Shown piece by piece: positions 7,743 to 22,425 of a stretch of DNA of 64,000 nucleotides. This stretch comes from Pseudomonas sp. (lineage in GTDB: Bacteria > Pseudomonadota > Gammaproteobacteria > Pseudomonadales > Pseudomonadaceae). The position numbers and the translations under genes are program-made. The stretch covers positions 4,752-68,751 of the forward strand of contig JAVXRI010000010.1 in the NCBI GenBank assembly GCA_036643775.1. Reading direction: 5' to 3'. The stretch's first letter is position 1, and every line of letters starts with the position of its first letter. Under the pieces are notes generated by a model. That model saw only the letters and a list, made by a program, of their open reading frames with translations, had not been told where the DNA came from and ran no database searches.

Positions 7743-7910
7743 TACAGAAACTTGGCTCGCAGTGTCGTTTAGACCAAAGGCAAGCGGGCAATGGTACAGG
7801 GATTTTGCGCGCGATGCCGAGGCCAACAGCCACGGCGCGACCATTTGTCCATGCATTTGCGTGCATATCGGCAATTGCTTTTTGCATAAGCAGGTTGCAT
7901 TATGCGGATT

Positions 7911-8645
7911 ATGCAAAAACGCAACGTAGCATCCGTCTTGAGAGCACTGCTCGACCGTCACGGTATCTCCCCCACGGAGTTGCACCGGCGTACCGGCGTG
8001 CCGCAATCCACCCTGTCGCGCATTCTCAGCGAGAAGATCGTCGATCCTTCTGACAAACATGTGTCGAAGATCGCCGAGTATTTCGGCGTGAGCACCGATC
8101 AATTGCGTGGCCGCGTCGAACTCGGTGAAAGCCGCGAAGCCGCGCCCGGGCGCAGTCACGCCGAGTTGCGCGATATCAGCCTGTGGGATGACGACACCCC
8201 TGTCGAGGATGACGAGGTATCCATTCCGTTTCTTCGTGAGGTCGAGTTGGCAGCAGGATCAGGACGATTCGTCATCGAGGAAAGCGAGAAGGCCAGCCTG
8301 CGCTTCGGCAAGCGCAGCCTGCGCCACAACGGCGTGCAGTTCGACCAGGCCAAGTGCGTCACGGTGCGCGGCAACAGTATGTTGCCGGTGTTGCGCGATG
8401 GCGCCACGGTAGGGGTCAACGCTGGCAAGAGTGGCATCGGCGATATCGTCGACGGTGACCTGTACGCCATCAACCATAACGGCCAGCTGCGGGTGAAGCA
8501 GCTCTATCGTCTGCCTACCGGTATTCGTCTGCGCAGTTTCAACCGTGATGAGCATCCGGATGAAGACTACAGCTTCCAGCAGATGCAGGAGGAGCAGATC
8601 AGCATCCTCGGCCACGTCTTCTGGTGGGGCATGTACGCCCGCTGA
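7911..8645 (+). CDS. prtR: PrtR-like repressor (Cro/CI HTH + S24 autopeptidase)
   Basis: HTH ([18 protein letters not shown]), Ala-Gly cleavage region (ELAAGSG), catalytic Ser (VRGNSM) and Lys (RVKQL); start MQKRNV at 7911. Confidence 0.9.
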
Positions 8646-8663: not shown

Positions 8664-8689
8664 AAAACCCGCTTCGGCGGGTTTTTTTT
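8664..8689 (+). terminator. Intrinsic terminator after the repressor
   Basis: AAAACCCGC-ttcg-GCGGGTTTT plus T-run. Confidence 0.9.
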
Positions 8690-8777: not shown

Positions 8778-8806
8778 TTGACTGCATATGCATCAATGCA
8801 TAATCT
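8778..8806 (+). promoter_or_regulatory. Candidate sigma70 promoter of the tailocin structural/lysis operon
   Basis: TTGACT-17 bp-TAATCT (alternative CATAAT at 15 bp spacing), embedded in a long palindrome. Confidence 0.65.
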
Positions 8807-9013
8807 TTGTCTCAAGCCGGTCATCACCGGTAGCGACAAAGGCAGCGATGAACAGGCCTGAACTGTTCAGAGGGTTGGCAACTGGCCCGGGTGTGCAGCG
8901 TAAAGCACCACAAGCAGTTATCCGGCGGGCAGGTGGCCGCGGTCGGAGGAACAATTTGAAGCGGAGTCGTCCAGCGCACCAGTCGTGGCAGGCGATTCGA
9001 CAACGCATTACTG

Positions 9014-9040
9014 AAAAGCCTGGAAACGCCGGGCTTTTTG
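9014..9040 (+). terminator. Intrinsic terminator in the tailocin leader, upstream of the holin
   Basis: AAAAGCCTGG-aaacg-CCGGGCTTTTT; flanks GCATT/AATGC can extend the stem. Confidence 0.75.
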
Positions 9041-9114
9041 GAATGCCGAGTGGTCGGTTTTAAACACATGCCGCAGGCAAGGTGCCGTGCGGAACAATAA
9101 AAGGAGACAGGACA

Positions 9115-9468
9115 GTGACAAGCGAGCAACAGACGTTACTGGAAATGCCGATCTGGCTGGTGATCGTCCTGGCCTTGCTGGGCGGTCTCTCTGGCGAGAT
9201 GTGGCGTGCGGACAAGGCCGGTGCCCGAGGCTGGGCGCTGTTTCGGCGCCTGCTTTTGCGTTCGGGAGCCTGCATGGTCTGCGGCGTATCCACGGTGATG
9301 CTGCTGTATGCCAGCGGCATGTCGATCTGGACCGCCAGTGCCTTTGGCTGCCTGACGGCGATGGCCGGTGCCGATGTGGCTATCGGGCTTTATGAGCGGT
9401 GGGCCGCACGGCGCTTGGGGGTCGAAACACAGGTCTCGGAGTTTCAACGCCAGGACAACAAGGAGTGA
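9115..9468 (+). CDS. Phage/pyocin-type holin
   Basis: 117 aa with hydrophobic helices (PIWLVIVLALLGGLSGE...AMAGADVAIGLY) and charged C-terminus; AAGGAG RBS, GTG start; first gene of the operon as in R-pyocin clusters. Confidence 0.85.
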   Translation: MTSEQQTLLEMPIWLVIVLALLGGLSGEMWRADKAGARGWALFRRLLLRSGACMVCGVSTVMLLYASGMSIWTASAFGCLTAMAGADVAIGLYERWAARRLGVETQVSEFQRQDNKE

Positions 9469-20754: not shown

Positions 20755-20822
20755 CGCCGCGGTCATACGTGCAGCCATCGGACCCCGCCTCGTGCGGGGT
20801 CTGCTTTTCTGGAGCATGAGCC

Positions 20823-21873: not shown

Positions 21874-22425
21874 ATGGAAGTAACCGAAAAGACGCTGTTA
21901 TTGATTTTCCCCAACGCCCGCCAGCAAGCGGGCGTTTTTGTTCCAGCCTTGAACACTGCCATGCGGCGCTGGGAGATCGACTCTGCGCGGCGCACAACGG
22001 CGTTCCTGGCGCAGATCGGTCATGAGTCCGGTCAACTGCGCTACGTCAAGGAGTTGGGCAATGATCGCTACCTGTCGCGTTATGACACCGGCAGTCTCGC
22101 CCTGCGCCTGGGCAACAGCCCCGAGGCCGATGGCGATGGTCAGCGGTATTGCGGTCGGGGACTGATCCAGATCACCGGGCGTAACAATTACCACGCCTGC
22201 AGCATGGCGCTGTTCGGTGACGAACGTTTGCTGGACCTGCCACAACTGCTGGAACAGCCGCGATGGGCGTGTGAGTCGGCGGCCTGGTTCTGGCATTCGC
22301 GCGGGCTCAATCAACTCGCCGACCGGGGTGAGTTCAACCGCATCACCCGCCATATCAATGGTGGGCTCAATGGTCTGGAGGATCGCTTGAAGCTCTGGGC
22401 GCGGGCCCGTGAGGTGCTGTGTTGA
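21874..22425 (+). CDS. Endolysin, glycoside hydrolase family 19
   Basis: AFLAQIGHESGQL, YCGRGLIQITGRNNY, INGGLNGLEDR; GAGG RBS before ATG 21874. Confidence 0.95.
   Translation: MEVTEKTLLLIFPNARQQAGVFVPALNTAMRRWEIDSARRTTAFLAQIGHESGQLRYVKELGNDRYLSRYDTGSLALRLGNSPEADGDGQRYCGRGLIQITGRNNYHACSMALFGDERLLDLPQLLEQPRWACESAAWFWHSRGLNQLADRGEFNRITRHINGGLNGLEDRLKLWARAREVLC

What the first reader, a model, noticed from the sequence alone, without database searches (positions are those of the whole stretch)
8807..9045. Structured ~230-nt leader ending in a terminator, with no antiterminator gene in the cluster: candidate RNA-based antitermination system
Seen: ~310 bp separate the predicted promoter from the holin. 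Right after +1 are consecutive stems: CCGGT/ACCGG (8817-8830), TGAACAG/CTGTTCA (8849-8869), GGGTTGG/CTGGCCC (8872-8888) and GGTGT/GCACC (8890-8909). An intrinsic terminator follows at 9014-9040. No PrtN-, Q- or N-like ORF was recognised between mutS and cinA, yet a ~14-kb operon must be transcribed past this and four more terminator-like hairpins. Established: lambda pR'-tR' needs Q, whereas HK022 put RNA stem-loops confer protein-independent processive antitermination. Inference: the leader is a put-like cis-acting antiterminator, a loading site for an unlinked factor, or a discrete sRNA released at 9040. I know of no description of this element.
Basis: partly seen in the sequence, partly recalled or inferred. 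Interest (0 to 1): 0.82.

Follow-up and report, generated by a model that had tools for sequence, protein, structure and literature searches.

The report
New structured leader RNA before tailocin genes
The untranslated stretch between the tailocin repressor gene and the holin is one copy of a large, previously undescribed, strongly conserved folded RNA that heads the damage-inducible killing and lysis operons of Pseudomonas tailocins and prophages, and it most likely lets RNA polymerase read through terminators, although that function has not been tested.

Summary
Window 8814-9046 is a seven-helix non-coding leader (P1-P7).

- Structure: on 68 distinct copies, 97.8% of pair cells form pairs, against 24-48% for slid controls. 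Fifteen pairs change on both sides. P6 and P7 covary too.
- Distribution: DNA similarity finds the leader in 120 of 201 genomes of the genus, often in 2-4 copies. A second copy lies in this genome. The covariance model finds it in 4 of 21 genera of the family, in three phage or tailocin records, and nowhere credible outside the family.
- Known families: no Rfam family matches, no paper found describes it, and it is not a homologue of HK022 put.
- Position: it follows S24 repressor genes, in the place of lambda nutL or HK022 putL. 56 of 95 copies carry an rrn-type boxA at fixed spacing. The window's lineage does not.
- The "terminator": 9014-9040 is the conserved helix P7. Only tailocin-type copies have its U-run.
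- Cluster genes: none resembles a known antiterminator or PrtN/Ogr-type activator, and strong terminator-like hairpins lie inside the operon.

Best reading (about 0.45): a cis-acting leader that helps transcription pass terminators using host factors. Rivals are a stability or translation leader, a factor-gated attenuator, and a small RNA.

The parts
7902..8645 (+). prtR/ptbA-type repressor gene (helix-turn-helix plus S24 peptidase), directly upstream on the same strand
   Evidence: Pfam Peptidase_S24 at E = 1.4e-18 and HTH_3 at E = 1e-10. A homologous S24 repressor lies upstream of the RNA in 28 of 41 further loci.
8664..8689 (+). prtR terminator: CCCGC-TTCG-GCGGG followed by T8
   Evidence: Read from the sequence. 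In a related strain, RNA-seq contigs of prtR end at the equivalent site.
8778..8806 (+). Tail-operon promoter TTGACT-17-TAATCT, set in ATGCAT-type operator repeats
   Evidence: Read from the sequence. The -35, the -10 and the start-region TCTCAAGC align across tailocin-type loci and the second copy in this genome. In a related strain, RNA-seq shows no coverage over the equivalent promoter, and contigs begin about 25-30 nt after the predicted +1.
8814..9046 (+). The whole leader RNA, from the inferred +1 (about 8813-8815) to the 3' end of P7
   Evidence: Covariance model R1 scores 159 bits on the core. Covariation is shown. It is non-coding.
8816..8831 (+). P1 hairpin (GCCGG / CCGGU)
   Evidence: 98.3% of cells pair and two pairs change on both sides. 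P1 is absent or replaced in some sublineages.
8839..8848 (+). Nearly invariant single strand AAGGCAGCGA. Its GCAGCG recurs in the P4 loop.
   Evidence: Listed among the invariant and nearly invariant columns. It is retained as GG(U/C)AGCGA in the divergent genera.
8849..8869 (+). P2 hairpin (UGAACAG / CUGUUCA)
   Evidence: Four of seven pairs change on both sides. The stem is fully replaced by CAGGAG/CUCCUG in another genus.
8872..8888 (+). P3 hairpin (GGGUUGG-CAA-CUGGCCC)
   Evidence: 100% of cells pair. One pair varies among U-A, U-G and G-C.
8890..8909 (+). P4 hairpin (GGUGU / GCACC) with an invariant 10-nt loop GCAGCGUAAA
   Evidence: The middle pair is U-A in 42 sequences and C-G in 24. 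The loop columns are invariant.
8921..8947 (+). P5: a bulged helix (UCCGGCGGGC ... GCC-G-CG-G-UCGGA) with a tip of variable length
   Evidence: Six of ten pairs change on both sides. Prophage-type copies carry an extra GNRA hairpin at the tip.
8964..8998 (+). P6: a long irregular hairpin with apex CAC-CAGUC-GUG
   Evidence: The middle apex pair is G-C in 31 sequences and A-U in 15. The outer stem varies between lineages while keeping complementarity (read from the alignment).
9005..9046 (+). P7. Outer stem GCAUU/AAUGC, internal loop ACUGA/UUGG, inner GC-rich hairpin 9015-9037.
   Evidence: -23.9 kcal/mol, z = -6.1. The same architecture is found in 85 of 97 distinct loci, including other genera. 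The pairs covary. The U-run is 5 in 52 of 85 copies and 2 or fewer in 28.
9115..9468 (+). Holin, the first gene of the operon
   Evidence: Pfam Phage_holin_3_5 at E = 5.7e-55.
11284..11309 (+). Terminator-like hairpin inside the operon, after the gpV-type spike gene
   Evidence: AGCCCGCCGACGCGGGC followed by TTTTTT. An identical hairpin lies at the equivalent place in a related cluster (L110).
15289..15313 (+). Terminator-like hairpin inside the operon, before the sheath gene
   Evidence: Similar hairpins occur at mid-cluster positions in seven other clusters (L110, L113, L116, L117 with the same core stem; L111, L118, L119 with other stems).
20779..20812 (+). Terminator-like hairpin inside the operon, before the gpD gene
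21913..21944 (+). Terminator-like hairpin at the start of the endolysin gene

Best explanation
**What it is.** Window 8814-9046 is one member of a new family of non-coding leader RNAs, about 230-260 nt long, specific to Pseudomonadaceae. The RNA is made as the first part of the transcript from the repressor-controlled promoter. It folds into seven helices. Two invariant GCAGCG-containing single strands are exposed.

**How it most likely works.** It acts in cis on the RNA polymerase that made it. It would do so directly or through host elongation factors. In most family members NusB/NusE are implied by a neighbouring boxA. The polymerase would then read through P7, which in tailocin copies resembles a terminator. 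It would also read through the terminator-like hairpins inside the roughly 13-kb holin-tail-lysis operon, and through Rho sites. This would be the functional counterpart of lambda nut or HK022 put, without a phage-encoded N protein.

**Shown:** the RNA family, its fold, its position, its association with boxA, that it is non-coding, and that transcripts continue past P7.

**Inferred:** the effect on elongation and termination.
For: 1. Structure is conserved by covariation.
2. The element always lies at the 5' end of a repressor-controlled early or lytic operon, just after an S24 repressor gene on the same strand. In phages PseuP_224 and Orimi01 it heads the leftward early operon (ERF recombinase, nuclease, methylase). 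HK022 has the same order around putL: cI, then PL, then putL, then nun and erf.
3. GCTCTTTA/G (GTTCTTTA in a few copies) lies 19-22, 28-31 or 47-55 nt upstream of the core in 56 of 95 distinct loci. The genome-wide frequency of GCTCTTTA is 4e-6 per base. This genome's own rrn boxA is CGCTCTTTAACAA.
4. The genes that follow the RNA differ widely, and no conserved partner gene follows it. This points to an operon-level function that relies on host factors.
5. No ORF of the cluster matches a known antiterminator or PrtN/Ogr-type activator family.
6. Canonical terminator-like hairpins recur on the sense strand inside 11 tailocin clusters.
7. In P. protegens CHA0, a reporter carrying the whole prtR1-hol intergenic region is induced about 1000-fold by mitomycin C even when the whole tailocin cluster is deleted (PMC12066065). 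Passage through the leader therefore needs no cluster-encoded protein.
8. RNA-seq contigs of 5-13 kb run from the leader into the tail genes.
Against: - There is no direct measurement of termination or read-through.
- The window's own lineage has no boxA.
- There is only one copy per phage, with no counterpart in the rightward operon. Lambda and HK022 have two sites.
- In phages PseuP_224 and Orimi01, the pattern scan found no clear intrinsic terminator on the operon strand in the 5 kb that follow.
- P7 keeps its architecture whether or not it has a U-run. In prophage copies it lies 20-30 nt before the first start codon. That would also fit a role in translation or RNA stability.
- The excess of sense over antisense terminator-like hairpins is modest (45 against 25).
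- Internal promoters were not excluded.
Confidence: 0.45

Rival explanations
1. The leader acts after transcription. It would be a structured 5' UTR that protects the long operon mRNA from 5'-end-dependent decay, or that sets translation of the first gene, for example by binding a host protein or positioning the ribosome-binding site. It would have no effect on termination.
For: In prophage-type copies P7 is followed at a nearly fixed distance by CAACC, a Shine-Dalgarno sequence and the start codon. The RNA begins essentially at +1 with a stable hairpin, P1. P7 is conserved with or without a U-run.
Against: The first genes are unrelated to one another, and in tailocin copies 50-100 variable nucleotides separate P7 from the holin's ribosome-binding site. 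The boxA association is a transcription-elongation signal and has no known role in stability. A 5' stabiliser would not need about 230 nt with invariant loops.
Confidence: 0.2
2. The leader is a gated attenuator. In tailocin clusters P7 would be a genuine terminator that stops most transcripts. A trans factor induced by DNA damage would bind the RNA and open the gate locally, not processively. The candidate seen here is the LexA-controlled small DUF1654 protein.
For: - P7 has a GC-rich stem plus U5 in 52 of 85 copies.
- In CHA0 the reporter that contains the leader is still induced about 1000-fold by mitomycin C without PrtR1.
- No LexA box lies in the promoter or leader.
- DUF1654 genes, most with canonical LexA boxes, lie next to the RNA in about 21 loci, including all four from other genera. 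A chromosomal copy with a LexA box exists in this genome.
Against: Prophage-type copies have no U-run, so there is no gate to open. In L017 and L018 the U-run erodes through compensated changes. No alternative pairing that competes with P7 is conserved. The link to DUF1654 is adjacency only. Its model has no significant fold match, and the family is also present in genomes without the RNA.
Confidence: 0.15
3. The leader is a discrete small RNA, released at the P7 U-run or by processing. It would act in trans, as a regulator or as a sponge for a host protein, during the SOS response.
For: It has its own promoter and a terminator-like 3' end in tailocin copies. An RNA-seq contig covers just 8817-8974. 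One contig starts with adapter sequence at the 5' edge of the core.
Against: Prophage copies lack a terminator and run straight into the first gene. Assembled contigs continue for kilobases. Contig ends near the core can be explained by the repeat breaking the assembly graph.
Confidence: 0.08
4. The leader encodes a small arginine-rich peptide resembling lambda N (ATG 8849, 71 codons).
For: An open frame with an AAGG upstream exists here. Other first-stage readers noted similar Arg-rich micro-ORFs in leaders of this kind.
Against: The frame stops after 4 codons in 10 of 71 loci. Its length varies from 4 to more than 180 codons. Indels that are not multiples of three occur in P5. The ATG is absent in the divergent genera. 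Variation is lowest at third codon positions, not highest. There is no PHROGs hit.
Confidence: 0.02

Closest known systems
HK022 putL/putR RNAs (protein-independent processive antitermination)
   Same: Both are cis-acting structured RNAs at the start of a repressor-controlled early operon. The gene order is the same: repressor, promoter, RNA, early-left genes. No phage-encoded antiterminator protein is evident.
   Different: put is about 70 nt with two stem-loops and occurs twice per phage (my own knowledge). This RNA is about 230 nt with seven helices and occurs once per element. The covariance model finds nothing in HK022 (best 3.2 bits, E = 1.5). Most members carry a boxA, whereas put works without Nus factors (my own knowledge). 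The function here is untested.
Lambda-type nut sites (boxA plus boxB with N protein)
   Same: The position matches nutL. A boxA-like GCUCUUUA lies at fixed spacing upstream in 56 of 95 copies.
   Different: There is no 15-nt boxB hairpin, no conserved N-like gene downstream, and the Arg-rich ORF is not conserved. The window's own copy lacks boxA.
Ribosomal RNA operon antitermination leader (boxB-boxA-boxC with NusA/B/E/G, SuhB and S4)
   Same: Some copies have a small hairpin followed by GCUCUUUA, in the order seen in rrn leaders. This genome's rrn boxA is CGCTCTTTAACAA. The mechanism would rely on host factors only.
   Different: A large extra structured domain is present, there is no rRNA context, and the elements belong to mobile DNA.
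EAR RNA of Bacillales exopolysaccharide operons
   Same: It is a structured leader RNA proposed to let polymerase read through terminators inside a long operon (my own knowledge).
   Different: It is an unrelated sequence in a different phylum. EAR is in Rfam, and nothing in Rfam matched here.
P. aeruginosa PrtN activator of pyocin genes and AlpA antiterminator of the alp genes
   Same: Both give damage-inducible control of pyocin or lysis genes downstream of a PrtR/AlpR-type repressor. AlpA works by bypassing a terminator placed after the promoter (abstract of PMC7969949).
   Different: Those are proteins that bind DNA. This cluster has no homologue.

Membership tests
HK022 put RNA | Sequence and structure homology to putL/putR | tested here: not met
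   Model R1, run with filters off on the HK022 immunity region (8 kb holding PL and PR), gave a best score of 3.2 bits at E = 1.5.
HK022 put RNA | Location just downstream of the repressor-controlled early promoter | tested here: met
   plus the window layout.
HK022 put RNA | Acts in cis on RNA polymerase, without protein factors, to suppress terminators | not testable with these tools
   This needs in vitro transcription or reporter assays.
Lambda-type nut site | boxA (CGCUCUUA-like) upstream of the hairpin element | tested here: inconclusive
   Met in 56 of 95 family members at fixed offsets. Not met in the window's own lineage (L001-L018, L081, L084).
Lambda-type nut site | A boxB hairpin and an N-like arginine-rich protein encoded just downstream | tested here: not met
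   The downstream genes are unrelated to one another. The Arg-rich ORF inside the RNA is not conserved.
Intrinsic terminator (for 9014-9040) | GC-rich hairpin followed directly by a U-tract | tested here: met
   The stem GCCUGG/CCGGGC is followed by UUUUU, and the extended helix folds at -23.9 kcal/mol.
Intrinsic terminator (for 9014-9040) | The U-tract is conserved in homologous copies, as expected if termination were the selected function | tested here: not met
   U5 in 52 of 85 copies, 2 U or fewer in 28. In L017 and L018 U-to-C changes are compensated on the other strand.
Intrinsic terminator (for 9014-9040) | Transcripts end there | tested here: inconclusive
   Assembled RNA-seq contigs run through it. 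Contigs cannot show partial termination.
Any Rfam 15 family | A match to a curated covariance model | tested here: not met
   No hit on the leader at E of 10 or less in the window, apart from a chance-level one at 8986-9036 (asX2, E = 8). No hit at E of 0.1 or less on any copy of the leader in five other loci; the only match listed there lies elsewhere.
Riboswitch or attenuator | A conserved aptamer followed by a variable expression platform with mutually exclusive pairings | tested here: not met
   P7 keeps one architecture in all subtypes, and I saw no conserved alternative pairing when reading the alignments (not tested by a formal search). Ligand binding cannot be tested here.

The most novel reading that the evidence does not exclude
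The leader is the RNA half of an antitermination or attenuation switch gated by the SOS response. Its protein half would be the LexA-controlled small DUF1654 protein, which lies next to the RNA in prophages and bacteriocin cassettes and is supplied in trans from the chromosome for tailocins. After DNA damage, DUF1654 would bind the two GCAGCG motifs and convert RNA polymerase to a terminator-resistant form. That would explain why tailocins of the P. fluorescens group need no PrtN. It would also explain why mitomycin C still induces the CHA0 hol reporter about 1000-fold without PrtR1.
Probability: 0.12. Interest if true: 0.9.

Novelty: new variant of a known kind. Interest (0 to 1): 0.8.

Why it matters
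**An open regulatory question.** Tailocins of the P. fluorescens and P. putida groups have the PrtR repressor but not the PrtN activator of P. aeruginosa. How a roughly 13-kb operon studded with terminator-like hairpins is fully expressed is not explained. A 2025 study of P. protegens also reports a regulatory input that responds to DNA damage but does not depend on PrtR1 (PMC12066065).

**What this RNA offers.** It is a large, strongly covarying RNA, present in about 60% of genomes of the genus and heading tailocin, prophage and bacteriocin operons. It is an obvious candidate for the missing layer, and it can be tested directly with stem-disrupting and compensatory mutants.

**If it is an antiterminator.** It would be only the third RNA class known to do this, after put and EAR (my own knowledge). 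It would be the first that combines a boxA with a large folded domain in place of an N protein.

**Practical uses.** It is a marker for the lytic promoters of Pseudomonas prophages and tailocins. It may also serve as a part for engineering tailocin overproduction.

Tried and rejected
- **Single-sequence folding.** The fold is not exceptional (z = -1.7 for the whole leader, -0.2 for the core). Only comparison between copies shows the structure.
- **The terminator scan tool.** It misses P7 and the prtR terminator, apparently because it extends stems through the flanking A/U pairs. I wrote my own scan instead.
- **Coding reading.** The Arg-rich ORF is rejected.
- **Rfam.** Nothing matches.
- **HK022 put homology.** Rejected.
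- **Pseudoknot AGGC with the P2 loop GCCU.** The pairing is compatible, but the columns are nearly invariant, so it is uninformative.
- **Class-wide search.** Only chance-level hits outside the family.
- **RNA-seq.**
  - Only assembled contigs were available, and no raw reads for any close strain.
  - They support a start near the predicted +1 and continuity through P7, but cannot measure termination.
  - Laying the contigs on 16 kb of a related cluster failed because the cargo genes differ.
- **DUF1654 presence or absence across the genus.** It is found in 174 of 201 genomes, so it does not discriminate. Its AlphaFold2 model (mean pLDDT 73) has no significant PDB neighbour.
- **LexA box in the promoter or leader.** None.
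- **Intrinsic terminators downstream in two phages.** None clear on the operon strand.

Full report
**Setting.** The window holds a tailocin cluster of the P. fluorescens/putida type.
- The gene order is mutS (minus strand), then a PrtR/PtbA-type repressor (7902-8645; helix-turn-helix plus S24 peptidase).
- The leader comes next, followed by the holin (GTG 9115-9468) and two ORFs of unknown function.
- Then come P2-type tail genes: V, W, J, I, fibre genes, sheath, tube, chaperone, tape measure, U, X and D.
- The cluster ends with a GH19 endolysin and Rz, followed by cinA, recA and recX.
- No ORF matches a family that is a known antiterminator or a PrtN/Ogr-type activator.
- The promoter is TTGACT (8778-8783), a 17-nt spacer, then TAATCT (8801-8806), embedded in ATGCAT-type repeats. 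The transcription start is inferred at about 8813-8815.

**Checking the observation.**
- A fold of this single sequence is not exceptional (z = -1.7), so I turned to comparison with related sequences.
- A DNA search of 201 genomes of the genus found the leader in 120 of them.
- The central part (about 8840-8977) is 75-90% identical even where the flanks differ. It often occurs 2-4 times per genome.
- A second copy lies in this genome on contig C59 (84% identity).

**Structure of the core.**
- An alignment of 68 distinct copies and its consensus fold show helices P2-P5. P1, seen in the same alignment, was added by hand to the structure tested next.
- For a structure I specified by hand, 97.8% of pair cells form standard pairs. 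The figure is 24-48% when the 3' partners are slid by 1-3 columns.
- Fifteen pairs have changes on both sides, in 108 cells. None of 500 column shuffles reaches any observed measure.
- These sequences are related, so the shuffle count is not a probability. The slid-partner control and the many independent pair types (for example U-A in 42 sequences against C-G in 24 in P4) make the case.

**Structure of the 3' domain.**
- An alignment of 46 copies gives 14 of 19 predicted pairs with changes on both sides.
- These pairs define the apex of P6 and all of P7.

**Not protein-coding.**
- The 71-codon Arg-rich frame starting at 8849 stops after 4 codons in 10 of 71 loci.
- Its length varies widely, and it is broken by indels in P5 that are not multiples of three.
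- It has no ATG in the divergent genera.
- Variation is lowest, not highest, at third codon positions.

**The "terminator".** The hairpin at 9014-9040 is the inner part of P7 (9005-9046).
- P7 consists of an outer stem GCAUU/AAUGC, an internal loop ACUGA/UUGG, and an inner GC-rich stem.
- The same architecture is present in 85 of 97 distinct loci, including those from other genera.
- In tailocin-type copies the base of the inner stem is AAA/UUU. Together with the conserved UUGG this gives UUUUU.
- In prophage-type copies the base is UGC/GCA, GCA/UGC and so on, and there is no U-run.
- The count is U5 in 52 copies, U4 in 1, U3 in 4, and U2 or fewer in 28.
- In tailocin copies L017 and L018 the U-run is reduced by U-to-C changes that are compensated on the other strand.
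- Pairing is therefore what is conserved. In this window the hairpin still looks like a competent intrinsic terminator (-23.9 kcal/mol for the extended helix, z = -6.1). Whether it terminates is open.

**Distribution and context.**
- A covariance model of the core (R1, 151 positions) finds two copies in this genome.
- It finds one copy each in P. protegens phage PseuP_224, P. syringae phage Orimi01, and the tailocin record of P. fluorescens Q8r1-96.
- It finds copies in 23 of 301 sampled genomes of the family, spread over 4 of 21 genera. These include divergent copies scoring 32-49 bits, in which P2 and P5 are rebuilt with different sequences.
- Nothing credible turns up in 400 genomes of the class outside the family.
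- An S24 repressor gene lies just upstream on the same strand in 28 of 41 further loci.
- In the two lambdoid phages the RNA heads the leftward early operon (ERF recombinase, nuclease, methylase). This is the position of nutL in lambda and putL in HK022. HK022 has the same order: cI, PL, putL, nun, erf.
- The genes that follow the RNA are unrelated from locus to locus.

**boxA.**
- In 56 of 95 distinct loci, GCTCTTTA/G (GTTCTTTA in a few) lies 19-22, 28-31 or 47-55 nt upstream of the core. It is sometimes preceded by a small hairpin.
- GCTCTTTA occurs 50 times in the 12 Mb of both strands of this genome. That gives an expectation of 0.0006 per 150 nt.
- The genome's own rrn boxA is CGCTCTTTAACAA.
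- This is a strong, specific link to Nus-factor-dependent elongation control, based on what is established for boxA with NusB/NusE (PMC3177189 and PMC2800207 abstracts).
- The window's own lineage lacks boxA. The link therefore holds for the family, not for this copy.

**Evidence on function.** All of it is indirect.
- *For antitermination:*
  - the nutL/putL-like position;
  - the boxA association;
  - the absence of a partner gene;
  - recurrent canonical terminator-like hairpins on the sense strand inside 11 tailocin clusters (45 sense against 25 antisense in the first 14 kb).
- *From the P. protegens CHA0 study:* a reporter holding the whole prtR1-hol intergenic region is induced about 1000-fold by mitomycin C in the wild type, in a strain lacking the whole cluster, and in a strain lacking both the cluster and prtR1.
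  - Passage through the leader therefore needs no cluster gene.
  - A damage-responsive input independent of PrtR1 exists.
  - No LexA box lies in the promoter or leader here or in other tailocin-type loci.
- *From public RNA-seq contigs:*
  - In four runs of a strain close to locus L030, nothing covers the promoter.
  - In those runs 5.5-kb contigs begin 25-30 nt after the predicted +1 and run through P7 into the tail genes.
  - Contigs of 6-13 kb do the same in other organisms.
  - Contigs cannot reveal partial termination.
- *Against:*
  - there is one copy per phage, not two;
  - no clear intrinsic terminators follow in the two phages;
  - P7 lies close to the first ribosome-binding site in prophage copies.

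**A lead on a partner protein.**
- Small DUF1654 genes lie next to the RNA in about 21 non-tailocin loci. They are upstream on the same strand or divergent.
- These loci include all four from other genera. Most of the genes carry a canonical LexA box (CTGTAT-N4-ATACAG).
- This genome has three copies.
  - One is beside the second RNA copy on C59.
  - One is chromosomal with a LexA box on C122.
  - One is on C121.
- The family is nearly universal in the genus, so co-occurrence says nothing.
- Its predicted fold (mean pLDDT 73) has no significant neighbour in the PDB.
- It is a candidate for the unlinked factor, and no more than that.

**Comparison with what is known.**
- The RNA is not in Rfam 15.
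- It is not a put homologue.
- I found no description of it in five full-text searches or in the tailocin papers I read. Subscription-only literature is not covered.
- In position and likely logic it resembles put, nut and the rrn leader. In size and fold it is unlike any of them.

**Verdict.**
- The RNA family is new, and its mechanism is inferred.
- My confidence that it is a conserved structured non-coding leader is above 0.95.
- My confidence that its function is to suppress termination is about 0.45.

Noticed in passing
Own genome contig C59:7673-7908 (minus strand; locus L031): A second full copy of the leader RNA in this genome. It follows an S24 repressor gene, then a LexA-box DUF1654 gene, a terminator and a promoter (TTGACT-17-TTAAAT) with different operator repeats. 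An Alginate_lyase2-family ORF of 237 aa follows it. This is possibly a bacteriocin or prophage-remnant cassette.
   Followed up: partly
Loci L031, L033, L036-L038, L040, L041, L044, L045, L047-L049, L052, L080, L083, L086, L098-L101; own genome C122:2444-2797 (minus strand) and C121:4057-4410: Small DUF1654 genes, most preceded by a canonical LexA box, lie directly beside the RNA. They are upstream on the same strand or divergent, and this holds in other genera too. DUF1654 appears to be an uncharacterised member of the SOS regulon linked to prophage lytic control regions.
   Followed up: partly
Own genome contig C121, minus strand, about 3892 down to 3450: A leader with the same 5' hairpin-plus-boxA module (GGCCCTCAACGGGGCC-GCCGCTCTTTAACAC) and a P7-like 3' module before the ribosome-binding site. 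Its roughly 300-nt middle is different, and model R1 does not detect it. The leaders look modular, and a wider superfamily may exist.
   Followed up: no
Locus L008 (G090:C2), inside the P7 loop: A palindromic insertion of about 120 nt, resembling a REP or MITE element, sits in the apical loop of P7. The stem and UUUUUGG are kept on either side. The tip of P7 therefore tolerates large insertions.
   Followed up: no
window 11284-11309, 15289-15313, 20779-20812, 21913-21944: Four strong terminator-like hairpins on the sense strand, with GC-rich stems (three share a CCCGC/GCGGG core). Three lie in gaps between tail genes and one at the start of the endolysin gene. Similar hairpins recur inside most of the ten other tailocin clusters examined.
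   Followed up: partly
Locus L020:1627 (RNA-seq run X32): A transcript contig begins with Illumina adapter sequence exactly at the 5' edge of the conserved core, 7 nt after boxA. This is either a preferred RNA 5' end (processing) or an assembly artefact at a repeat boundary.
   Followed up: no
window 9047-9066: A small second hairpin, CCGA-GTGG-TCGG, followed by TTTT lies just after P7. It is not conserved in other lineages.
   Followed up: no
PMC12066065 (P. protegens CHA0), section 18: The hol reporter is still induced about 1000-fold by mitomycin C in a strain lacking PrtR1 and the whole tailocin cluster. The authors note that other mechanisms must exist. The reporter fragment contains the leader RNA described here.
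   Followed up: partly
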